DNA from: Thermodesulfobacteriota bacterium
Lineage (GTDB): Bacteria > Desulfobacterota_D > UBA1144
DNA length: 64,000 nucleotides
Assembly (NCBI GenBank): GCA_036340075.1
Contig: JAYYZJ010000005.1
Location: 101,980-165,979 of the forward strand
Reading direction: 5' to 3'
The translations under genes were made by a program, and so were the position numbers. Under the pieces are notes generated by a model. It did no database searches, had not been told where the DNA came from, and saw nothing but the letters and a program-made list of their open reading frames with translations. Shown here one piece after another: positions 6,151 to 32,490 of this stretch (its first letter is position 1; each line of letters starts with the position of its first letter).

Positions 6151-6897
6151 ATGCCCTCTTGCTATCTCCAGATTTATGAGAACCTCAAAGAAATAGAAGA
6201 TAAAGATTATTGGAAAGAGTATATAGATTTTTATGAAGATTACTGGGGTGGACCAACATCTCCATATGGAGTTTGGTTTGGCAATGAATATTCAGTATTC
6301 CAAGACACTCTTTCTGACTTTTTATCAGTAGAAAAAAAAGATTTAAAAGAGTGTTTATTTATAAAAGATAACGAAGACTATTATGTATGCCCAAATGGAA
6401 TCAAAAAAGGAGACAGCCCCTACTCTTTCCTTGTTAATAACGTTATTCCACTTCATTGGTTCTTTCTTTTTGCAGAAAATCAGAAAAAAGTCTTCAAAAC
6501 TCATTGGGGTTTTGGCGCAATCCACTATACTAGCAATATTAATTCAGCAACAAAAATGATTGATGATTTTATACCCCTAAAAGAAAAAGTAGCTAATGAA
6601 AATGAGAATCTATATAACTTTATTAGTGCAATAATTGATGATATGGCACATATACAAAATTGGTTTAAGCATTTTTCAAAAAAAAGTAAGGTTATATTGA
6701 ATTATGGTGACTTGCTGATATCTTTCCCTCCTAATACTTTAGATAAAGAAGATTCAGTAAAAATAATAACGGATTTTAAGTACACATTGAGCAAACAACA
6801 GTATTCAGAAGCACTTAGTTTAATTGAATTTCTAATAAACAGATGGTCAAAAATAGAATTTGCAAATCAAAAAGATATTACCAAATCAACTAATTAA
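6151..6897 (+). CDS. hypothetical protein, 248 aa
   Basis: ORF with coding composition. Convergent with the two unknown genes downstream of fumC. Confidence 0.5.
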   Translation: MPSCYLQIYENLKEIEDKDYWKEYIDFYEDYWGGPTSPYGVWFGNEYSVFQDTLSDFLSVEKKDLKECLFIKDNEDYYVCPNGIKKGDSPYSFLVNNVIPLHWFFLFAENQKKVFKTHWGFGAIHYTSNINSATKMIDDFIPLKEKVANENENLYNFISAIIDDMAHIQNWFKHFSKKSKVILNYGDLLISFPPNTLDKEDSVKIITDFKYTLSKQQYSEALSLIEFLINRWSKIEFANQKDITKSTN

Positions 6898-24654: not shown

Positions 24655-25503
24655 ATGACAAGAAGTATGACAGGTTATTCATCTATTTCTGGAACCCATG
24701 ATTTATTTAATTTCCTAATACAAATCAGATCTGAAAATAGCAAAAGTTTAGAAATATCAATCATTGATGACTTAAACAATTTCAAATTACAAGAAAAAAT
24801 AAAAAAAATAATAAGAAAAGATTTCTCAAGAGGTAAAATTAGAATTGTCATAAGTTGCAAGCCAGATCAAAAGTTCGTAAAATCTAAAAATATCGAAAAA
24901 GTATTATCAGATTTTACTAATTTAACAAAAAAAAGAGGACTCGTACCAACCATTTCTCTTCTAGAATTAAGAGAGATTATAAATACAGAATCTACCAAAA
25001 TGCAATCAAATCTTAAAAATGAACAATATCAGATTTTTTTAACGAAAAAAGCAATAAATCAATTAATAAAAAATCAAAAAGAAGAAGGTTACAAACTGCT
25101 AAAAGAGTTAAATAAAAAGATTAATAATATTTCCAAATTAATTCAAAAAATAGACTACCAAGTTGGTAAATTTAGTAAAAGAATAACTAGAAGATATGAA
25201 AAAGAGTTCTCAAAAATAAAGACTGTTGAAGATTTTGATATAAAAAGAGAAATTTCAATCTTATTAGAAAAAGTGGATATCGAGGAAGAGATTATAAAAC
25301 TAGAATCTCATATTTCTAAACTTAAAAGCATTATTAAAACTTCGGAGCCAAAAGGTTTGATGATAGATTTTTATATGCAAGAAATTAACAGGGAAGCAAA
25401 TACGCTAGCATCAAAAAGCAAAGACTTTTCAATATCAAAGTATTCAATTGAAATTAAAAGAGACTTGAACCAAATAAGAGAGATTGCTGCGAATATTATT
25501 TAA
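24655..25503 (+). CDS. YicC-family stress-induced protein
   Basis: 282 aa. MTRSMTGY N-terminus matching the YicC MxRSMTGF motif, plus a C-terminal DUF1732-like EEEIxKLxSHI segment. Confidence 0.65.
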   Translation: MTRSMTGYSSISGTHDLFNFLIQIRSENSKSLEISIIDDLNNFKLQEKIKKIIRKDFSRGKIRIVISCKPDQKFVKSKNIEKVLSDFTNLTKKRGLVPTISLLELREIINTESTKMQSNLKNEQYQIFLTKKAINQLIKNQKEEGYKLLKELNKKINNISKLIQKIDYQVGKFSKRITRRYEKEFSKIKTVEDFDIKREISILLEKVDIEEEIIKLESHISKLKSIIKTSEPKGLMIDFYMQEINREANTLASKSKDFSISKYSIEIKRDLNQIREIAANII

Positions 25504-26270
25504 TCTTTAGATAGTATTATTGGTCTAAAAACGTATAGAACATTCTTTCTTGCGTAATTCTCTGATGAAAATTTATATTCATAAACTTCTTTGACTTTCC
25601 TATGTAAAACATAATTCATTTTTTCTTTAGTGGAAAATACTTTACTCTTTTTTTCTCGGAATATTGTAGAATCAGGTCCACCGTAATGCAATAGTTCAAC
25701 CTCACCTCTTTTAATTACTTTTTTAATATTATTTTTCAAAAAGTTTTCAAAAAAATTCAGAACATCAGAAATTTTTCCTGTTGCTCTAGATACAAAAATA
25801 TCTGGAATCTCTTCTTCCAATAGCAAATGTTCGAGTCTGGCATGATTAATTTTAATTAAATTTATTGGCAACCTTTTTCTTATCTTTGTGCTAATCAAAT
25901 TTAGAAAATCACACTTTTTTCTATTGGAATCCAACAAATGTATTTTTTTAATTAATTTTTTACTTTTACAAATTTGATCATACAGTATTAAAGGTATCCC
26001 CGGGAAGCCTGCCCCAGAGCCTATATCAAGCATATGGCAACTTTTCTTAAATTTATTTTTTTCTAAAAATCGCTCAAAGCCTAATATTGAATCAATAAAA
26101 TGCTTATCAACTATCTCTTCTTCTTTCACTATTCTAGTTAAATTATATTTCTTATTTTCAATAACTAGTAATTCAGCGAATTCATCTAGAGCTTCAATTA
26201 AATCTTGATTTAACAAAAGCTTGTTACTTGTAAATTTTTCTTTTATTAGATTTTTAATTTCGGAGGACAC
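25500..26270 (-). CDS. rsmG: 16S rRNA (guanine527-N7)-methyltransferase RsmG; probable GTG start at 26270
   Basis: LDIGSGAGFPGIPL SAM-binding motif. The GTG start is preceded by AAGGAG and shares its G with the stop of the upstream MFS gene (TAGTG). Confidence 0.7.
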   Translation of the reverse strand: MSSEIKNLIKEKFTSNKLLLNQDLIEALDEFAELLVIENKKYNLTRIVKEEEIVDKHFIDSILGFERFLEKNKFKKSCHMLDIGSGAGFPGIPLILYDQICKSKKLIKKIHLLDSNRKKCDFLNLISTKIRKRLPINLIKINHARLEHLLLEEEIPDIFVSRATGKISDVLNFFENFLKNNIKKVIKRGEVELLHYGGPDSTIFREKKSKVFSTKEKMNYVLHRKVKEVYEYKFSSENYARKNVLYVFRPIILSKD

Positions 26271-27412
26271 TAAATCGTACTCCTTTTTCTCACAATGAGG
26301 AAGATGATGCCTAGAAATATTACACATGATGAGAATTGGAACATTGTATTAAATCCCCAAATCTCAGCTATAAAGCCATAAAAAAGAGTCATAAGATTAA
26401 CTCCTATACTAAAAGAACAGTTTAAGGCTCCAAACAACCTTCCACTCAAAGACTTTGATTTTCCTGATAATGTGATTGAAGACAAGAAGGGGTAAACAAG
26501 TGAATATGTTAAAGAAAAAAAGATAGAAAAAATAACGACATCATATTTTGTTCCTATATAAGGCAACATAAAAATTGATAATGAAAATAATGAGAGCATA
26601 ATTAAAATTTTGTTAAATAATTTATCAGAAGAAAATCTTGAGGAAAGAAATATTCTTGATAATGAAACAACTATGCTATATGCAATAAAAAAGAACCCGA
26701 CCGATAGACTGTTGTTTTTAAGAAAAAGCGATAAAAAATTCATTACAACACCAAAGCCTGATGCTAAGAGAAAATTAGCAAACAAATAATTAAATATTTT
26801 ATTTTCACTAATTATCTTAAAAAAACTTAAGGTGTCTATAGAAGAATCTTTATCATTTGATTCTTCATGAACAAAAATTATTAGGACTAGTGAAACGAAA
26901 GAAAATAAGGATGCGTATATAAAGAACTCATCAAAACCGACATTTATTATAATTTTCTCTGAAAAAAATGGTCCTAAGAAGTATGATAGTATCGTAAATG
27001 AACTAAATAATGATAAGCCAACTTGTTTATCACTATCATCAAGGTTGTTTGATGCTATCGCTGATGATGAATTAAAAAAAATGGAGAATGCTACTCCTTG
27101 TATGATTCTTAAAAGTAGAATTAAGTAAAAATTAGTTATATGAATAAATAAAAATGAAGAGGTAAACATAAGGCATAAAGCAAAAATACATAATATTTTC
27201 TTACCATATTTATCTATTAATGTTGATGTGTATGGTGTTAAAAGTATTGAAGATAAACCAAAAGTTGCCATGATAATTCCAATATCCGATTTGGAATAAC
27301 CTAAATTATCTAAGAACAACGGTAGCAAAAAGAAGCAAGAAAAGTTTACAAAGAAAAAACAATTAGAAAAAGTTGCTAGAATGAAATTTTTGTTAAATTT
27401 ATTAAACAACAT
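26270..27412 (-). CDS. MFS transporter
   Basis: 380 aa, about 12 TM. TLIDKYGKK loop between TM2 and TM3. Confidence 0.7.
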   Translation of the reverse strand: MLFNKFNKNFILATFSNCFFFVNFSCFFLLPLFLDNLGYSKSDIGIIMATFGLSSILLTPYTSTLIDKYGKKILCIFALCLMFTSSFLFIHITNFYLILLLRIIQGVAFSIFFNSSSAIASNNLDDSDKQVGLSLFSSFTILSYFLGPFFSEKIIINVGFDEFFIYASLFSFVSLVLIIFVHEESNDKDSSIDTLSFFKIISENKIFNYLFANFLLASGFGVVMNFLSLFLKNNSLSVGFFFIAYSIVVSLSRIFLSSRFSSDKLFNKILIMLSLFSLSIFMLPYIGTKYDVVIFSIFFSLTYSLVYPFLSSITLSGKSKSLSGRLFGALNCSFSIGVNLMTLFYGFIAEIWGFNTMFQFSSCVIFLGIIFLIVRKRSTI

Positions 27413-27474: not shown

Positions 27475-27548
27475 GGGCCGTTAGCTCAGCTTGGTAGAGC
27501 AACTCCCTTTTAAGGAGTGGGTCGCAGGTTCGAATCCTGCACGGCTCA
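27475..27548 (+). tRNA. tRNA-Lys (anticodon UUU)
   Basis: Cloverleaf identified by hand: acceptor GGGCCGT/ACGGCTC (one G-U pair), D-arm TAGCTCAGCTTGGTAGAGC, anticodon stem ACTCC/GGAGT with loop CTTTTAA, T-arm GCAGGTTCGAATCCTGC. CCA is not encoded. Confidence 0.9.
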
Positions 27549-27549
27549 T

Positions 27550-27624
27550 GTCCCCATCGTCTAGTTTGGTCTAGGACACCGCCCTTTCACGGCGAAAACA
27601 GGGGTTCAAATCCCCTTGGGGACG
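27550..27624 (+). tRNA. tRNA-Glu (anticodon UUC)
   Basis: Acceptor GTCCCCA/TGGGGAC, anticodon loop CTTTCAC in the CGCC/GGCG stem, T-arm AGGGGTTCAAATCCCCT. Near-identical to the canonical bacterial tRNA-Glu. Sits 1 nt after tRNA-Lys. Confidence 0.9.
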
Positions 27625-28197: not shown

Positions 28198-29151
28198 TTA
28201 AGAATTTTTAAGTAGTTTATTCTTTGAGTCAGATACAACATTAGGCAAACTAAACAAATCGTTTACAAAAGTAGCTCCGATTTCTTCATAAGTATCCAAA
28301 TAAAGAGTGGACCGTTTCCCACCAATAATTATTTCATATTCTACGCCTATACCCTTCCTTATCTGGATTAATTCATAAGGTATCATTTCATCATTTAATG
28401 GATAAAGAATGCTTAACAGAATAGCTGATGCTTTAGAATCCTTAAAAGCTTCTACAATATTGTCTGAATCTAAATCAGTTCCAAGATAAATAGGATTCCA
28501 ACCTGCCGAGAGTGTAATGCAAGCATTTACTAAACAACCTAATTCAGCTTTTTGACCTTTTGGTGTTGCAATTAAGATTGATGGCATAGAATTTTGTAAA
28601 GTTCTATTCCTATAAGAAGATCTATAATTTTCTAAATAGTTTCTGATAACAGCATTAGCAAATCTTTCCTGAGATTTGGTAATCATATTGTTTTTCCACA
28701 AACGTCCAATATGTTTTATAAATGGAATCATAAATTTATGAATCACATACACATCTCCTAATTCTAATGCAACATCATAGATATTTTTCTCTAATTGAGC
28801 AATGTTGTAAGTCTTAGTATTTTCTATACAACTATCAAAATAGTGCTTAGTTAGACTATTCAATTTCTCTAGCTCAGGATACTCAACATTAGATTCACCG
28901 CTTTGTACTTCAGAGACGAGGTTTCTTAGTTCTGATAAGTTTAATGTGCCTATTTCTTGCAAAGTAAAACCAATTGCTTTAGCCTCATTCATTAGTTGTA
29001 ATATCTCTAAATCTTTATCAGTAAATCTTCTACTACCTTTAGAAGACCTATTTATTTTAAGTATTGGGTATCTTTCTTCCCATTTCCTGATTTGATCAGC
29101 AGAAAGGCCTGTTATCTTACTTACAACCCTCATAGGATAGCTGTGAGACAT
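28198..29151 (-). CDS. MerR-family transcriptional regulator with C-terminal B12-binding-like domain (CarH/LitR-like, His ligand not conserved)
   Basis: N-terminal MerR HTH (MRVVSKITGLSADQIRKWEERY). The C-terminal segment SILIATPKGQKAELGCLVNACITLSAGWNPIYLGTDL aligns to the cobalamin-binding Rossmann motif GE-x-HELG...G-x-x-v-x-yLG, but the His is replaced by Ala. Confidence 0.7.
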   Translation of the reverse strand: MSHSYPMRVVSKITGLSADQIRKWEERYPILKINRSSKGSRRFTDKDLEILQLMNEAKAIGFTLQEIGTLNLSELRNLVSEVQSGESNVEYPELEKLNSLTKHYFDSCIENTKTYNIAQLEKNIYDVALELGDVYVIHKFMIPFIKHIGRLWKNNMITKSQERFANAVIRNYLENYRSSYRNRTLQNSMPSILIATPKGQKAELGCLVNACITLSAGWNPIYLGTDLDSDNIVEAFKDSKASAILLSILYPLNDEMIPYELIQIRKGIGVEYEIIIGGKRSTLYLDTYEEIGATFVNDLFSLPNVVSDSKNKLLKNS

Positions 29152-29269
29152 ATAATAATAGTATCAAAAAAGATAAGAATGTCAATGTATATTAATATTT
29201 TGTCTAATTTTTTCTAAAGTTTATTGATTATATATTGACATATATCAGACATTATTTAATATTATAAAT

Positions 29270-30274
29270 ATGCAATCTTTGAATGCTAACAATAAAGGCT
29301 CTAGGAAATCTTTCTTAACGAATAAAAGCTCTGCATCTAAAGCAGATACTTCAGAATACGAACTTGTAAAAGATTACTATTCTAAAGCTCTTACCGCTCC
29401 ACTGCTTAGCGGAGAAGAAGAAAGGAATATATCATCTCGGTTGAGAAAATGTGAAAGTAAAATATCCAGCTTAGAGAGTAAATTAAAAAAATTTCAAAAA
29501 AATAAAATACATTATGAGAGAATTAATATTTTTAAAAAAGCTTTTGAGAAAAAACGAATTTCCTTGTTCCATAAATTTATTGTCTCTAATTTAAGATTAG
29601 TCGTTAGCATAGCAAAAAAATATTCAAATAGAGGTGTAGGCTTACCGGATTTAATTCAGGAAGGAAATATTGGCTTGATGAGAGCAGTTGAGAAATTTGA
29701 CCATACTAAAGGTTTTCGTTTTTCAACATACGCAGCTTGGTGGATTAATCAATCCATTTCAAGATCAATAATGAGTCAGTCAAGATCAATCAAATTACCA
29801 GTATATATTTCTGAAAAATCAGCTCAAATTTTTAAAGCATACAAAGCACTTGAAGTTAAGAATGATAGAAAACCTGATGTTCATGAAATAGCAAATGAAG
29901 TTAATTTACCAACTGAAGCAGTTAAATTTGTAATTGATTCAGGGAAAGAAACTGTTTCACTAGATGCACCAATAACTACAGATGATGCTACATCTTTTCT
30001 TGATTTCCTAAAAGATGAGAATCATTTACAAGATGAAATAAGTACAAATAATTCTTTAACTAATGAGCTAAATGAAGCCCTTGAAATCTTAAACGATAGA
30101 GAGAAGGAAATAATAAGACTACGATTTGGAATTAGCAATAATGAGATTCTAACACTTGAAGAAATTGGAGAAAGATTAGGATTAACACGAGAAAGAATTC
30201 GTCAAATTGAAAAAAAGGCGTTAAACAAAATAAACAGAATACGTGGAAAAGAGCTTAAGGGATATATTAATTAG
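29270..30274 (+). CDS. RNA polymerase sigma factor, sigma-70 family (group 1/2-like: regions 1.2, 2, 3, 4; no region 1.1)
   Basis: 334 aa. [18 protein letters not shown] and [17 protein letters not shown] (region 2), and [25 protein letters not shown] (region 4.2). Confidence 0.85.
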
Positions 30275-30428
30275 ACAAACTAATGAATAAACAAAACAAA
30301 TTAAAAGATAAAAAAAATAAGCAAAGAAGCAAAAAAATAAGTCTATCAATTACAACGAAAAAAGACACAACTTCTAAAAAAAAAGATACTATTAGAAGAT
30401 ACACTAGAAATCTATTACTATCTTAATA

Positions 30429-31844
30429 ATGAATTCGTTAATACTAGATAATAAATTTAACTGTTCTGTTGAAAATCTTTTTAAATGGCACAAAAATGAA
30501 TTAGCAATTGAAAGGTTGACTCCACCGTGGGATAACATAAAAATTGTAAGAAAAGAGACTCAAACTGATTCTTATATAAATTCTGGAAAAGTATTGCTTA
30601 ATCAGCAAGTTTTTCCCTTTATCAATTTAAAATGGGAGATTAAACATAAAAATTATTCTGAAAATAAGTCATTTGATGATTTTGCAATTAAAAGTCCTTT
30701 TAGGTCATGGTATCACAAACATTTATTCGACTCTATAGATTCAAATACAAGCAAACTAACTGATGATATGAGTTTCGATTTGTGGCTTAACAATGAATCT
30801 ATTGCTAAGTATATTAAATCTAGACTTATTAAATCATTTAAGTATAGGTATAAAATACTTGCTTTCGACTTGTCGCTTCAAAATAGCATCAATCACTTTA
30901 ATGAATACATTCTTGTTACTGGAGGCACTGGGAATATTGGAAAACATTTGATACCACACCTTAATTCCATTGGATACAAAGTTATCTTGTTGAAATATGA
31001 TAATAAAGCAAATAATGAATATATTGGGAATAATGTTTTTGACAATTCAGAGCTTATCACTTTACCGTGGAATCCGTACAATGATAAGACAATAAGATTT
31101 CCTGAAGAAATAGCTAAAAAAATTAATCATGTGATTAATTTATCTGGGGAAACCATCTTAGGATTATGGACAAAAGAAAAAATGAAAACTATACAGAATA
31201 GCAGGCTTGTTCCTACTAGATCCTTATTTAATTTAATAGATTCAAATAATATTAAATTAATTTCATCTATTCATTCTTCCGCAATTGGAATTTATGGAAG
31301 TAGTTCTGACTCAATAATCTCAGAGGACAGTCTCCCTGGAACAGGGTTTTTGGCTGAAACTACTAAAAATTGGGAGATTGAGCAAAATAAATTCAAACGG
31401 TTCTCTGAAAGGAATATAAACCTAAGAATTGGTGCGGTTCTGTTATACAATGGAGGATTTTTAAAACCCCTACTTATCCCTAACATCTTACGAATTGGAG
31501 TATCTTTCAATAACCATGAAAATTATTTAAGTTGGATTGGCATTGAGGATTTAACAAGAATTGTAAGTTTTACACTAAGAAGTTCTACATTGAATGGACC
31601 AGTAAATGCAGTAGCACCTAATCCATTAACAAATAATGAATTTTTTAAAGTTTTGAATAATAAATTCAAAACAAAATTTACTGTTAATTTTCCTGTATTT
31701 TTACCAAAATTAGTATCTAAAGAACTAACAAAAGAGATAATAATGGCCAATCAAAGGGTTTTTCCTTGTAAACTAACTGATTCGCATTTTAAATACTTTT
31801 CAAATAATCTTTCAGATACATTGGACAATACATTCGGTTTTTAG
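30429..31844 (+). CDS. SRPBCC-like N-terminal domain fused to a YfcH/TIGR01777-family NAD-dependent epimerase-like domain
   Basis: N-terminal about 150 aa with FRSWYHKH. Then a Rossmann VTGGTGNIGKHL and the extended-SDR-like remainder (DUF1731-type C-terminus). Confidence 0.65.
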   Translation: MNSLILDNKFNCSVENLFKWHKNELAIERLTPPWDNIKIVRKETQTDSYINSGKVLLNQQVFPFINLKWEIKHKNYSENKSFDDFAIKSPFRSWYHKHLFDSIDSNTSKLTDDMSFDLWLNNESIAKYIKSRLIKSFKYRYKILAFDLSLQNSINHFNEYILVTGGTGNIGKHLIPHLNSIGYKVILLKYDNKANNEYIGNNVFDNSELITLPWNPYNDKTIRFPEEIAKKINHVINLSGETILGLWTKEKMKTIQNSRLVPTRSLFNLIDSNNIKLISSIHSSAIGIYGSSSDSIISEDSLPGTGFLAETTKNWEIEQNKFKRFSERNINLRIGAVLLYNGGFLKPLLIPNILRIGVSFNNHENYLSWIGIEDLTRIVSFTLRSSTLNGPVNAVAPNPLTNNEFFKVLNNKFKTKFTVNFPVFLPKLVSKELTKEIIMANQRVFPCKLTDSHFKYFSNNLSDTLDNTFGF

Positions 31845-31860
31845 TAATTTATTAATTAAT

Positions 31861-32490
31861 ATGAAAATCAGTCTTACAAGGAAAGAATATAAAAAATCAA
31901 AGTCTATTTTTGATGACGAGAAAGATCCAAATAAAAAGTTTAAGAAATGGTATAGATATGCTGAAAAGAAAGTTTCCGAACCTAATGCTTTTACTTTATC
32001 AACTTCTATAAATAATAAACCTTCATCTAGAATGATGTTGCTAAAAGGTATAGATGAGGATTTGGTCTTTTATACAAATAAAATAAGTAGAAAAGGAAAA
32101 CAAATTAAAGAAAATAAATATGCGAGTATGGTATTTTGGTGGAAAGAGATTAATCGACAAGTTAGAATAGAAGGAAAATTAAAAGAACTACCAGCTAAAG
32201 AAGTAGAGAAATATTTTAGTTTAAGACCAATAGAAAGTCAGATTGGTGCATTAATTTCAAAACAAAGTACAAAAGCATCTTCTTATAAAAATATTATTAG
32301 AGATTTTAAAATTGAAAGAAGTAACCATATAAAAAATAATACAAAAATTGTAATGCCTAAATTTTGGACAGGATATAAAATTAAGCCGGATTTGTTTGAA
32401 TTTTGGCAAGGTGGGGAATTTCGACTTCATCAAAGACTAGAATTTAAAAGAAGAAAAAATAAATGGATTAAATCGGTACTGTTCCCATGA
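31861..32490 (+). CDS. pdxH: pyridoxamine 5'-phosphate oxidase
   Basis: Aligns along its length to E. coli PdxH (LLKG.DE..FVFYTN, RPxxSQIGA, FWQGGEFRLHQR C-terminal motif). Confidence 0.85.
   Translation: MKISLTRKEYKKSKSIFDDEKDPNKKFKKWYRYAEKKVSEPNAFTLSTSINNKPSSRMMLLKGIDEDLVFYTNKISRKGKQIKENKYASMVFWWKEINRQVRIEGKLKELPAKEVEKYFSLRPIESQIGALISKQSTKASSYKNIIRDFKIERSNHIKNNTKIVMPKFWTGYKIKPDLFEFWQGGEFRLHQRLEFKRRKNKWIKSVLFP

What the first reader, a model, noticed from the sequence alone, without database searches (positions are those of the whole stretch)
28198..30274. MerR regulator with a His-less B12-binding-like domain, divergent from a sigma-70 family sigma factor
The regulator gene is at 28198-29151 (minus). 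It has a MerR HTH plus a C-terminal Rossmann-like cobalamin-binding domain, which is the architecture of CarH/LitR/CarA photoreceptor-repressors. In the canonical DxHxxG/E-x-H-E-L-G motif the axial His ligand is replaced (GQKAELG), so cofactor binding, if any, must differ: base-on, another ligand, or none.

It is transcribed divergently from a compact 334-aa sigma factor at 29270-30274. That sigma factor has full regions 2-4 but no region 1.1. The 118-bp shared intergenic region contains TTGACA and TATTAT-like elements and the AT palindrome ATATTAATAT, a plausible operator.

In Myxococcus, the B12-dependent MerR repressors CarH and CarA control a light regulon that includes the ECF sigma factor CarQ. 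A regulator controlling a sigma factor here would be an analogous, undescribed switch. Downstream on the sigma strand are an SRPBCC/YfcH epimerase-like fusion and pdxH, which could be part of the regulon.
Basis: partly seen in the sequence, partly recalled or inferred. Interest (0 to 1): 0.7.

Follow-up and report, generated by a model that had tools for sequence, protein, structure and literature searches.

The report
His-less CarH relative guarding a sigma gene
In abundant, genome-reduced marine bacteria (Dadabacteria), a vitamin-B12 light-sensor repressor has lost the two histidines that hold and work the vitamin. It has kept its fold, its DNA sites and its place beside a sigma-factor gene, so it probably still represses that gene but responds to something other than B12 photochemistry.

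Summary
ORF 28198-29151 (-) is a MerR HTH plus a complete CarH-type cobalamin-binding domain (four-helix bundle and Rossmann module). It is divergent from a 334-aa sigma-70-family gene at 29270-30274 (+).

Aligned to T. thermophilus CarH, the lower axial His177 is Ala202 and His142 of the W-x9-E-H motif is Arg163. All 21 marine Dadabacteria copies share both changes. All 67 homologues from other phyla keep both histidines.

The domain is not decaying: dN/dS is 0.03-0.05. The predicted fold matches CarH.

The regulator-sigma pair is inherited. Non-marine Dadabacteria carry a canonical His-bearing CarH divergent from the orthologous sigma, followed by a photolyase.

The only invariant intergenic blocks are four GACA repeats in CarH-operator phase. 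They overlap the -35 element and spacer of the sigma promoter and the regulator's own -35 element.

Best reading: a B12-independent CarH descendant that still represses the sigma operon and itself, with an unknown signal. Marine Dadabacteria lack cobalamin synthesis.

Whether the sigma is alternative or the lineage's primary sigma is unresolved.

Verdict: a new variant of a known kind, of moderate interest.

The parts
28198..29151 (-). Regulator gene, 317 aa: a CarH/LitR-family MerR protein lacking both functional histidines
   Evidence: ORF. Pfam MerR_1 and B12-binding. TtCarH is the best PDB match by sequence and by fold. dN/dS is 0.03-0.05.
28945..29139 (-). MerR winged-helix DNA-binding domain (aa 5-69). 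Its recognition helix carries R22-K-W-E-E-R-Y28.
   Evidence: Pfam MerR_1, E 3.5e-15. The motif compares with the RxWERRY motif of CarH/CarA (PMC9304148). Column entropy within the clade is 0.36.
28597..28806 (-). Four-helix-bundle subdomain (aa 116-185). W152 and E162 are kept. Arg163 (28663-28665) replaces His142 of TtCarH.
   Evidence: Alignment to TtCarH. The change is fixed in 14 of 14 distinct marine sequences. This part is as conserved as the DNA-binding domain: entropy 0.36 and dN/dS 0.02-0.03.
28252..28584 (-). Rossmann-type B12-binding-like subdomain (aa 190-300). Ala202 (28546-28548) replaces the lower axial His. Cys206 (28534-28536) is a clade-specific gain. S247-x-L249 is kept. 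G277-G278 is GG here but NG in most clade members.
   Evidence: Pfam PF02310, 33.1 bits. Motif table. Clade-specific substitutions. Codons checked.
29179..29189 (-). Direct repeat TACATTGACAT. It matches nAnnTnnACAn and contains the -35 TTGACA (29185-29180) of the regulator's own promoter.
   Evidence: Consensus match. Promoter scan gives TTGACA-16-TACTAT. TGTC at 29180-29183 is invariant in 12 marine loci.
29200..29210 (-). Direct repeat AAATTAGACAA. It matches nAnnTnnACAn and lies 21 bp upstream of the repeat at 29179-29189, on the same strand.
   Evidence: TGTC at 29201-29204 is invariant in 12 marine loci. It is not a promoter element, so promoter function does not explain its conservation.
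29158..29163 (-). -10 hexamer TACTAT of the regulator promoter. It ends 6 nt before the ATG, so the mRNA is probably leaderless.
   Evidence: Promoter scan. Sequence.
29231..29241 (+). Direct repeat TATATTGACAT. It matches nAnnTnnACAn and contains the -35 TTGACA (29235-29240) of the sigma promoter.
   Evidence: GACA at 29237-29240 is invariant. Positions 29235-29251 match the non-marine Dadabacteria sigma promoter at 16 of 17 bases.
29242..29252 (+). Second direct repeat ATATCAGACAT, exactly 11 bp after the first. It lies in the spacer between the -35 and -10 elements of the sigma promoter.
   Evidence: GACA at 29248-29251 is invariant in 12 marine loci. GACA-N7-GACA occurs only twice in the 64-kb window. 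The same TAGACA repeat is present in non-marine Dadabacteria.
29257..29262 (+). -10 hexamer TAATAT of the sigma promoter, 7 nt before the ATG
   Evidence: Promoter scan gives TTGACA-16-TAATAT.
29270..30274 (+). Sigma-70-family sigma factor, 334 aa. It has a region-1.2-like segment, a roughly 45-aa insertion and regions 2-4. It has no region 1.1.
   Evidence: Pfam regions 2, 3 and 4. It scores below every RpoD/RpoS/RpoH cutoff in NCBIfam. The orthologue in non-marine Dadabacteria sits between CarH and a photolyase. Family traits are shown.
30283..30426 (+). Small conserved ORF, 47 aa, very basic, with C-terminus IRRYTRNLLLS. It lies between the sigma and epimerase genes.
   Evidence: ORF. 47-50-aa orthologues with the same C-terminal motif were found in 8 of the 10 marine loci searched. 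Gene callers annotated it in L003-L007. No Pfam hit.
30429..31844 (+). SRPBCC-like N-terminal domain fused to a YfcH/TIGR01777 epimerase-family domain. It is probably co-transcribed with the sigma gene.
   Evidence: Pfam Epimerase and NCBIfam yfcH at 199 bits. Full-length homologues lie directly divergent from His-bearing CarH in L049 and L059. L049 has Polyketide_cyc, Epimerase and DUF1731.
31861..32490 (+). pdxH (pyridoxamine 5'-phosphate oxidase), on the same strand and conserved in this position
   Evidence: Pfam PNPOx_N and PNP_phzG_C. Synteny in L001 and L003-L007.

Best explanation
The regulator is the marine-Dadabacteria descendant of a canonical CarH photoreceptor-repressor.

What is kept (shown): it keeps the CarH DNA-binding domain and the whole cobalamin-binding-domain fold. 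From alignment it also keeps the residues that build CarH oligomers: W152, R170 and D226, which are the equivalents of the Arg-Asp dimer salt bridge, and G217.

How it binds DNA (inferred): it most likely binds as a dimer or higher oligomer to GACA direct repeats. One pair of repeats covers the -35 element and spacer of the sigma promoter. Another covers the -35 element of its own promoter plus a site 21 bp upstream. This would repress the operon sigma / 47-aa ORF / SRPBCC-YfcH / pdxH, and the regulator itself.

The signal (inferred): the lower axial His and the His of W-x9-E-H are both replaced, and the GG pocket is relaxed to NG in most clade members. The canonical AdoB12 base-off/His-on photochemistry is therefore most likely gone. 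The protein would then be B12-independent, as CarA is in Myxococcus, and would be released from DNA by a signal not yet identified. That signal could be a partner protein, a redox or thiol change, or a different ligand in the still strongly constrained pocket.

Shown here: the architecture, the substitutions and their fixation, purifying selection, orthology of the module, and conservation and phasing of the repeats.

Inferred: DNA binding, repression, B12 independence, and that the sigma is an alternative one.
For: - The His losses are fixed in 21 of 21 marine copies and absent in 67 of 67 homologues from other phyla.
- Among the 148 nearest 50%-identity cluster representatives, 127 are fully canonical and only 4 lack the aligned lower His.
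- The fold is CarH. The AlphaFold model has pLDDT 83.7. Foldseek's top hits are all TtCarH, and the cobalamin-binding domain aligns at TM 0.79-0.84.
- Purifying selection acts on every part. The four-helix bundle is as conserved as the DNA-binding domain.
- The module is orthologous to one with a canonical CarH. Non-marine Dadabacteria (GCA_001775255.1 and relatives) have CarH with W-x9-EH, xHExG and GG, divergent from a 373-374-aa sigma of the same subfamily and followed by a DNA photolyase.
- Their sigma promoter reads TTGACA-TATAT-TAGACA ... TAGACA-TCTAT-TAGACA, four repeats in 11-bp phase. The window reads TTGACA-TATAT-CAGACA.
- The four GACA/TGTC blocks are the only invariant runs longer than 1 nt in the intergenic alignment of 12 marine loci.
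- There are 3 perfect nAnnTnnACAn matches against 0.46 expected. That consensus is the published CarH operator unit (PMC8156234).
- Marine pelagic Dadabacteria lack the cobalamin module M00122 (PMC8115339 Table S6).
- Spacers of 16 nt argue against MerR-type activation by promoter untwisting.
Against: - No experiment shows that the protein binds these repeats or represses anything.
- Two of the four GACA blocks are also -35 hexamers, so their conservation alone does not prove operator function.
- Loss of the His ligand does not exclude corrinoid binding. From established knowledge, the corrinoid iron-sulfur protein uses the same Rossmann fold to bind its corrinoid base-off/His-off.
- The pocket-lining segments (PKGQKAELGC and the W...E helix) are the most conserved parts of the protein. 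That pattern would also fit a retained ligand.
- The module is present in MAGs with and without rhodopsin, so a link to light is not assured.
- If the sigma is the lineage's only primary sigma, simple repression cannot be the whole story.
Confidence: 0.55

Rival explanations
1. The protein is still a corrinoid- or tetrapyrrole-based sensor. The cofactor would be held without a His ligand: His-off, base-on, or ligated by another residue such as the clade-specific Cys206, four residues after the lost His. Light or redox state would still control oligomerisation and DNA release.
For: - W152 and E162 of the upper-face motif, S247-x-L249 and the whole fold are retained.
- The pocket-forming segments are the most conserved parts of the protein.
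- A206C is fixed in 14 of 14 marine sequences, where 64 of 68 others have Ala.
- This window's subclade still has GG.
- From established knowledge, B12-type Rossmann domains that bind corrinoid without a His ligand exist, for example the corrinoid iron-sulfur protein.
Against: - Both histidines needed for canonical CarH function are gone.
- GG is NG in most of the clade, which would narrow the nucleotide-tail pocket.
- Marine Dadabacteria lack cobalamin synthesis.
- No cobalamin riboswitch is found in the window. This is weak evidence, because the window is only about 6% of the genome.
Confidence: 0.2
2. The sigma factor is the primary (housekeeping) sigma of Dadabacteria, a short and divergent one comparable to the Bacteroidetes primary sigma. 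The regulator then only tunes or autoregulates its level and does not switch an alternative regulon.
For: - No other sigma-70-type gene is in the 64-kb window.
- The family has primary-like traits. It has an insertion between regions 1.2 and 2.1 where primary sigmas carry their non-conserved region. It has a C-terminal L(K/R)x(F/Y)L tail like the ...VLRSFLDD tail of E. coli RpoD (own knowledge).
- The best NCBIfam hit is RpoD.
- IMG names two orthologues 'primary sigma factor', and PGAP names a related family member RpoD/SigA.
- Related lineages carry one member of the family away from any CarH gene, as a core gene would be.
Against: - It scores far below all RpoD cutoffs: 285 against 555, and RpoD_Cterm 270 against 354.
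- It has no region 1.1.
- The near-universal RIPVHM motif of group-1/2 sigmas (own knowledge) reads IK(L/V)PVYI in all 120 best hits.
- It is only 64% identical to the closest relative, where SecD, TGT, PheS, Dxr and DCD are 82-95% identical.
- In non-marine relatives four CarH repeats cover its promoter and a photolyase follows it. That is the layout of a light-induced gene.
Confidence: 0.3
3. The C-terminal domain is a functionless relic of a dead photoreceptor. The gene persists only as a generic MerR regulator, or is on its way to loss.
For: The cofactor ligands are lost in a genome-reduced lineage that cannot make B12.
Against: - dN/dS is 0.02-0.03 for the four-helix bundle and 0.03-0.10 for the Rossmann part.
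- The gene is intact in every marine locus examined, in a roughly 1-Mb streamlined genome where useless DNA is lost.
Confidence: 0.03
4. The protein acts as a classical MerR-type activator. It would bind a dyad in the promoter spacer and remodel the promoter when a ligand arrives.
For: It has a MerR-family DNA-binding domain. The AT palindrome ATATTAATAT lies between the two promoters.
Against: - Both promoters have near-optimal 16-nt spacers, not the 19-20 nt of MerR-activated promoters.
- The palindrome is not conserved in relatives.
- The conserved elements are direct repeats, as for CarH.
Confidence: 0.04

Closest known systems
CarH / class I LitR (T. thermophilus, M. xanthus, B. megaterium): AdoB12-dependent photoreceptor-repressors
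   Same: - A MerR DNA-binding domain with a W-E-x-R-Y recognition helix.
- A four-helix bundle plus Rossmann cobalamin-binding fold. TtCarH is the best PDB match by sequence and by fold.
- Equivalents of the dimer salt-bridge and interface residues.
- Promoter-overlapping 11-bp direct repeats of the nAnnTnnACAn type.
- Orthologous by position to a canonical CarH in sister lineages.
   Different: - The lower axial His is replaced by Ala.
- W-x9-E-H reads W-x9-E-R.
- The His after the Trp is Lys.
- GG is NG in most clade members.
- It scores 77.6 against a cutoff of 400 for the CarH equivalog model.
- It has two repeats per promoter, not three or four.
- Its target is a sigma-factor operon, not carotenoid genes.
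CarA of Myxococcus xanthus (B12-independent CarH paralogue)
   Same: It is a CarH-derived repressor that keeps the cobalamin-binding-domain fold but, as inferred here, no longer depends on B12. In both cases the proposed driver is scarcity of B12 (PMC9304148 discussion).
   Different: [quoted passage not shown] The protein here has the opposite pattern.
- CarA sits in tandem with carH in a carotenoid operon and is countered by the antirepressor CarS.
- No second CarH copy, carotenoid genes or CarS-like gene is seen here.
Class II LitR (Pseudomonas PplR/PmlR2), effector of a short LOV photoreceptor
   Same: It is a LitR/CarH-family regulator that cannot use B12 and takes its signal from elsewhere (PMC9758184).
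   Different: - Class II keeps only the four-helix bundle. The protein here keeps the whole Rossmann module.
- No LOV, PAS or BLUF gene lies within 10 kb on either side.
LitR-LitS of Streptomyces (LitR controlling a light-response sigma factor)
   Same: The circuit logic is the same: a CarH/LitR-family regulator placed upstream of a sigma factor that would spread the response (PMC11519972).
   Different: - LitS is an ECF sigma. The sigma here has regions 1.2-like, 2, 3 and 4 and is of group-1/2 type.
- LitR is AdoB12-dependent.

Membership tests
CarH / class I LitR | N-terminal MerR-type winged-helix domain with an RxWERRY-type recognition helix | tested here: met
   Pfam MerR_1, E 3.5e-15. 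The sequence is R22-K-W-E-E-R-Y28. The motif is taken from PMC9304148.
CarH / class I LitR | C-terminal cobalamin-binding domain made of a four-helix bundle plus a five-stranded Rossmann module | tested here: met
   PF02310 at 33.1 bits against a 32.1 cutoff. The AlphaFold model has pLDDT 83.7. The top 50 Foldseek hits are all TtCarH, and the cobalamin-binding domain aligns at TM 0.79-0.84.
CarH / class I LitR | W-x9-E-H motif on the upper (adenosyl) face | tested here: not met
   W152 and E162 are present, but His is replaced by Arg163. The change is fixed in the clade.
CarH / class I LitR | Lower axial His in E/D-x-H-x-x-G | tested here: not met
   The sequence reads Q-K-A202-E-L-G. The position is A in 21 of 21 marine copies and H in 67 of 67 others.
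CarH / class I LitR | S-x-L/T/V and GG elements of the B12-binding motif | tested here: inconclusive
   S247-x-L249 is kept. GG is kept in this window but is NG in 12 of 14 distinct clade members.
CarH / class I LitR | Passes the curated CarH equivalog model (NF052513) | tested here: not met
   77.6 bits against a cutoff of 400, although the alignment is full-length.
CarH / class I LitR | Operator of tandem 11-bp direct repeats (nAnnTnnACAn) overlapping the promoter | tested here: met
   There are three perfect consensus matches plus one partial match. They overlap both -35 hexamers and are invariant across 12 loci. The same repeats are present beside the canonical orthologues. This is sequence evidence only.
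CarH / class I LitR | Binds AdoCbl, with light-triggered oligomer disassembly | not testable with these tools
   This needs purified protein, spectroscopy, size-exclusion chromatography and EMSA in dark and light.
CarA (B12-independent CarH paralogue) | [quoted passage not shown] | tested here: not met
   The pattern here is the opposite: Trp is kept and both His are lost. The criterion is from PMC9304148.
CarA (B12-independent CarH paralogue) | In tandem with carH in a carotenoid operon, with the CarS antirepressor pathway | tested here: not met
   No carH paralogue and no crt genes are found in the window. The neighbours are housekeeping genes.
Class II LitR | Only the four-helix bundle is retained, and a short-LOV partner gene is adjacent | tested here: not met
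   The full Rossmann module is present. None of the annotated neighbours has a LOV or PAS domain.
Primary (group 1) sigma-70 / RpoD | Region 1.1, a score above the RpoD equivalog cutoff, and the canonical RIPVHM segment | tested here: not met
   No region 1.1 hit. Scores are 285 against 555, and RpoD_Cterm 270 against 354. The segment reads SIKLPVYI. The motif expectation comes from established knowledge.
Primary (group 1) sigma-70 / RpoD | It is the only or essential housekeeping sigma of the genome | not testable with these tools
   Only 64 kb of a genome of about 1 Mb is available, and there is no second sigma in it.
RpoS / group 2 sigma | Passes the RpoS equivalog models | tested here: not met
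   TIGR02394 scores 272.6 against 378.7, and PRK05657 scores 264.2 against 394.
ECF sigma (LitS / CarQ type) | Two-domain sigma with regions 2 and 4 only | tested here: not met
   Region 3 is present at aa 182-251, and a region-1.2-like segment is also present.

The most novel reading that the evidence does not exclude
The lineage has not simply lost B12. It has re-tooled the CarH pocket for a new input.

The coupled, fixed changes are H202A, A206C one helical turn away, H163R and x201K/R. They sit in the most strongly constrained part of the protein.

They could mark a switch to a thiolate-ligated corrinoid or tetrapyrrole. Alternatively they could mark a cofactor-free, thiol- or redox-sensing domain.

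Either would give abundant ocean bacteria a previously unknown sensor chemistry, built on the B12-photoreceptor fold, that gates a sigma-factor operon.
Probability: 0.12. Interest if true: 0.8.

Novelty: new variant of a known kind. Interest (0 to 1): 0.55.

Why it matters
CarH is the founding example of vitamin-B12-based light sensing and is widely used as an optogenetic part. This is a natural, well-sampled lineage that has removed both catalytic and ligand histidines. It has kept the fold, the oligomer-interface residues and the operator under strong selection. It therefore shows another evolutionary route out of B12 dependence, different from the route CarA took.

It occurs in cosmopolitan ocean bacteria that cannot make B12, which links regulator evolution to vitamin scarcity in the sea.

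The work also exposes a conserved pairing of CarH with a sigma-70-like sigma gene. The pairing appears in non-marine Dadabacteria, where a photolyase follows, and independently in Verrucomicrobia. I found no description of this pairing in the papers I searched. It suggests that light responses in these phyla are spread through a dedicated sigma factor.

Tried and rejected
- The AT palindrome ATATTAATAT as operator. Rejected, because it is not conserved in 12 marine relatives.
- An alignment artefact as the cause of the missing His. Rejected by the 88-sequence alignment, in which the flanking G-Q and E-L-G columns are fixed.
- Light-related genes in the window. tblastn with photolyase, crtI, crtB and lycopene cyclase from related loci found nothing. 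Only a DUF8083 homologue at 6151-6897 turned up.
- A cobalamin riboswitch or other RNA element. The Rfam scan found only three tRNAs.
- Further operator-like repeat pairs elsewhere in the window. None lies in intergenic DNA.
- A second, canonical rpoD in the lineage. I tried the context of sigma hits P0135, P0133 and P0116, cluster names and the supplement of the Dadabacteria paper. None settles the question.
- The class III LitR paper (PMC6256028) is not held in the library.
- Placing the marine clade within the CarH tree. A neighbour-joining tree puts it on a long, unplaced branch. By raw identity it is closer to Ignavibacteria CarH (about 35%) than to non-marine Dadabacteria CarH (about 27%). 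Vertical descent therefore rests on synteny and operator identity, not on the protein tree.
- The distance from Cys206 to the cobalt site could not be measured, because model coordinates are not exposed.
Full report
**What is there.** The two ORFs are exactly as described: 28198-29151 (-), 317 aa, and 29270-30274 (+), 334 aa, with a 118-bp spacer. The window is about 30% G+C throughout.

For the regulator, Pfam finds MerR_1 at aa 5-69 (E 3.5e-15). It also finds the B12-binding Rossmann domain PF02310 at aa 192-292 with 33.1 bits, just above the 32.1 gathering score. B12-binding_2, the helical bundle, scores below its cutoff. NCBIfam's CarH equivalog aligns over the full length but scores 77.6 against a cutoff of 400.

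Among solved structures, the best sequence matches are T. thermophilus CarH/LitR (5c8d, 3whp; E about 1e-11). An AlphaFold model (pLDDT 83.7) retrieves only TtCarH chains as its top 50 Foldseek hits. The cobalamin-binding domain superposes at target-normalised TM 0.79-0.84 and about 3 Å.

**The histidines.** In the HMMER alignment, GQKAELG lies on GERHEIG, so the lower axial ligand His177 is Ala202. LWKNNMITKSQER lies on AWHRGEIGVAEEH. Trp131 and Glu141 are therefore kept, His142 is Arg163 and His132 is Lys153 (codons verified).

I collected 88 loci encoding relatives. All 21 copies from the close clade have W-x9-E-R and G-Q-K/R-A-E-L-G, and most have NG in place of GG. All 67 homologues from Ignavibacteria, Calditrichota, Verrucomicrobia, Acidobacteria, KSB1 and Desulfobacterales have W-x9-E-H, x-H-E/D-x-G and GG.

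An exhaustive HMMER search of 1.84 billion cluster representatives collapses the clade into one 50%-identity cluster. The next relative is 34% identical. Of the 148 nearest representatives, 127 are fully canonical. Four lack the aligned lower His, and eight have E-H changed to E-R, E-Q or E-G while keeping the lower His. Loss of the ligand is therefore rare and sporadic in the family. This is the only well-sampled clade I found in which both histidines are gone.

**Organism.** Record titles name the clade as marine 'Candidatus Dadabacteria' (UBA1144, TMED58, TOBG MAGs). These are cosmopolitan, streamlined pelagic bacteria (PMC8115339).

**Is the domain alive?** Pairwise dN/dS is 0.03-0.05 for the whole gene, 0.02-0.03 for the four-helix bundle and 0.03-0.10 for the Rossmann part. 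Column entropy within the clade is as low for the helical bundle (0.36) as for the DNA-binding domain (0.36).

Fixed clade-specific changes at positions conserved in both groups include H163R, H202A, A206C, G155N and G277N. The equivalents of the TtCarH dimer salt bridge (R170, D226), the dimer-dimer Gly (G217) and the Trp are retained. I mapped these from the alignment. Their roles are as summarised in PMC9304148 and, for residue numbers, from my own recollection of the TtCarH structure paper. A relic domain is therefore excluded.

**Where the module comes from.** The sigma's nearest relatives outside the marine clade are 370-450-aa proteins at 40-46% identity. Two of them were looked up. P0080, and P0089 from the Dadabacteria MAG GCA_001775255.1, each lie directly divergent from a MerR protein with both Pfam B12 domains. 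Each is followed by a DNA photolyase and a DUF8083 gene. That regulator carries W-x9-EH, DQAHEIG and GG.

The sigmas share a roughly 45-aa insertion between region 1.2 and region 2.1 and a C-terminal LKG(Y/F)L tail. The marine arrangement is therefore the streamlined descendant of a canonical CarH / sigma / photolyase light module.

Independently, nine Verrucomicrobia loci have a canonical CarH directly divergent from a 340-430-aa RpoS/RpoD-like sigma of a different subtype. In L038 a phytoene-desaturase-like gene follows that sigma, and a photolyase follows CarH.

Full-length homologues of the downstream SRPBCC-YfcH gene lie directly divergent from His-bearing CarH in two Acidobacteria loci. 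The SRPBCC domain alone lies near CarH in Ignavibacteria and Verrucomicrobia loci.

**Operator.** Published CarH operators are tandem 11-bp direct repeats, nAnnTnnACAn: three in Thermus and four in Bacillus (PMC8156234). They are not inverted repeats.

In non-marine Dadabacteria the sigma promoter reads TTGACA-TATAT-TAGACA-(N6)-TAATAT-(N2)-TAGACA-TCTAT-TAGACA. The regulator's promoter reads TTGACA-TATCT-TAGACA.

In the window the sigma promoter reads TTGACA-TATAT-CAGACA-(N5)-TAATAT. That is 16 of 17 identical over the first two repeats, although the two regulators are only about 27% identical.

The promoter scan finds TTGACA-16-TAATAT on the + strand (29235-29262) and TTGACA-16-TACTAT on the - strand (29185-29158). 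These are the only perfect -35 hexamers in 4.6 kb.

The intergenic region holds four GACA/TGTC against 0.48 expected. It holds three perfect nAnnTnnACAn matches against 0.46 expected. In an alignment of 12 marine intergenic regions with mean majority frequency 0.71, the only invariant runs longer than one base are these four tetramers: 29180-83, 29201-04, 29237-40 and 29248-51.

Two of them are -35 elements. The other two are not promoter elements: one lies in the sigma promoter spacer and one lies 21 bp upstream of the regulator's -35. Their invariance and helical phasing are what a CarH-type operator predicts.

No comparable repeat pair occurs in other intergenic DNA of the window.

**Mechanism.** The sites overlap the -35 element and spacer, the spacers are optimal at 16 nt, and the ancestry is CarH. 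The most likely action is therefore repression of the sigma operon and autorepression.

No terminator-like site separates the sigma gene from the genes that follow it: the 47-aa ORF, SRPBCC-YfcH and pdxH. They are probably co-transcribed.

What releases the repressor is unknown. Canonical AdoB12 chemistry is unlikely, for three reasons. Both histidines are gone, the GG pocket is relaxed, and marine pelagic Dadabacteria lack the cobalamin module M00122 while the other clades are scored as uncertain (PMC8115339 Table S6).

The authors of the CarA work proposed that B12 limitation drove the emergence of a B12-independent CarH paralogue (PMC9304148). The same logic fits here, although the molecular route is the opposite: CarA keeps the histidines and loses the Trp.

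A retained ligand cannot be excluded, because the pocket segments are the most constrained parts of the protein. The fixed A206C next to the lost His is suggestive but untested.

The module occurs in MAGs with rhodopsin (SP78) and in MAGs without it (NAT509, NAT510, SAT211, TMED58, UBA1144), according to Table S2 of PMC8115339. The present signal therefore need not be light, with the caveat that MAGs are incomplete.

**The sigma.** It is below every curated cutoff: RpoD 285 against 555, RpoD_Cterm 270 against 354, and RpoS 273 against 379. It has no region 1.1.

All 120 best database hits share P-V-Y-(V/I/L) where group-1/2 sigmas have P-V-H-M (the expectation is from my own knowledge). They also share the insertion after region 1.2 and the RpoD-like C-terminal tail.

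Against the nearest relative the sigma is 64% identical, while SecD, TGT, PheS, Dxr and DCD are 82-95% identical and the regulator is 82%. At greater distances its conservation is average.

These data, and the CarH/photolyase context of the orthologues, favour an alternative, originally light-induced sigma. I put that at about 0.7. The primary-like traits, and the occurrence of single family members away from CarH in related lineages, leave about 0.3 for a short, divergent primary sigma. I could not reach the rest of any Dadabacteria genome to count sigma genes.

**Comparison and novelty.** The protein works like, and descends from, CarH, but it fails two defining features of that family. It fits none of the described B12-less types: CarA, class II LitR with the bundle only, or classes III-V with no B12 domain (PMC9758184). 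A LitR-to-sigma cascade is known in Streptomyces, with the ECF sigma LitS (PMC11519972). I found no description of a CarH paired with a group-1/2-type sigma in the library searches. That is absence of evidence in an incomplete library.

I rate the finding a new variant of a known kind, with moderate interest.

Noticed in passing
window 30283-30426 (+): An unreported small gene lies between the sigma and the SRPBCC-YfcH gene. It encodes 47 aa, is extremely Lys/Arg-rich, and has a conserved C-terminus (I/N)(R/T)(R/S)xTR(N/I/M)LL(L/M)(S/F/Y). 47-50-aa orthologues were found in 8 of the 10 marine loci searched. No equivalent is evident in the non-marine loci. It has no Pfam hit. It could be a sigma-associated or anti-sigma-like factor.
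   Followed up: partly
window 29152-29269, compared with L003, L006, L011-L020: In this window and its closest relatives (L001, L009) both divergent genes look leaderless, because the -10 hexamers end 6-7 nt before the ATG codons. The other marine relatives have about 16 extra bases carrying a GTGAGGTG Shine-Dalgarno sequence ahead of the sigma gene. This subclade therefore appears to have deleted the leader.
   Followed up: partly
L038, L066, L075, L079, L081, L083, L085, L086, L087 (Verrucomicrobia): Canonical His-bearing CarH genes lie directly divergent from a 340-430-aa RpoS/RpoD-like sigma gene of a different subtype. That sigma has the canonical PVHM motif and no insertion after region 1.2. 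In L038 a phytoene-desaturase-like gene and a photolyase flank the pair. This is a second, independent CarH-sigma pairing.
   Followed up: partly
L049 4550-5881, L059 4501-5880, L026 2726-3115, L067 4822-5241: SRPBCC (Polyketide_cyc) domains, alone or fused to a YfcH/DUF1731 epimerase, recur next to canonical CarH genes in three other phyla. This uncharacterised enzyme family looks like a regular member of CarH regulons.
   Followed up: partly
window 6151-6897 (+): This ORF is 34% identical over 241 aa to the DUF8083 gene that follows the photolyase in the non-marine Dadabacteria CarH-sigma-photolyase cluster. Here it lies 22 kb away from the regulator. No photolyase was found in the window.
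   Followed up: no
P0219, P0234, P0263, P0281: Four other CarH-like cluster representatives lack the aligned lower axial His. They read Q-H-R-E-L-G, H to L, a degenerate motif, and H to D. Eight more have E-H changed to E-R, E-Q or E-G while keeping the lower His. Their organisms and genomic contexts were not examined.
   Followed up: no
L015 and L017 (MAG TMED58, contigs NHDL02000001 and NHDL02000003): The same MAG carries two different regulator-sigma pairs, 63% and 65% identical to the window regulator, on two contigs. This suggests a bin mixing two Dadabacteria populations and not a true duplication.
   Followed up: no
window 27475-27624 (+): Two adjacent tRNA genes lie between the MFS transporter gene and the cold-shock-protein gene, just downstream of the regulator's 3' neighbourhood.
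   Followed up: no
window 25500-26327 (-) and 26270-27412 (-): The mechanically called GidB ORF (275 aa) overlaps the 3' end of the MFS gene by 58 bp. In relatives GidB is called at 246-279 aa, and in L001 the two genes overlap by a single base. The true start here is probably an internal ATG.
   Followed up: no
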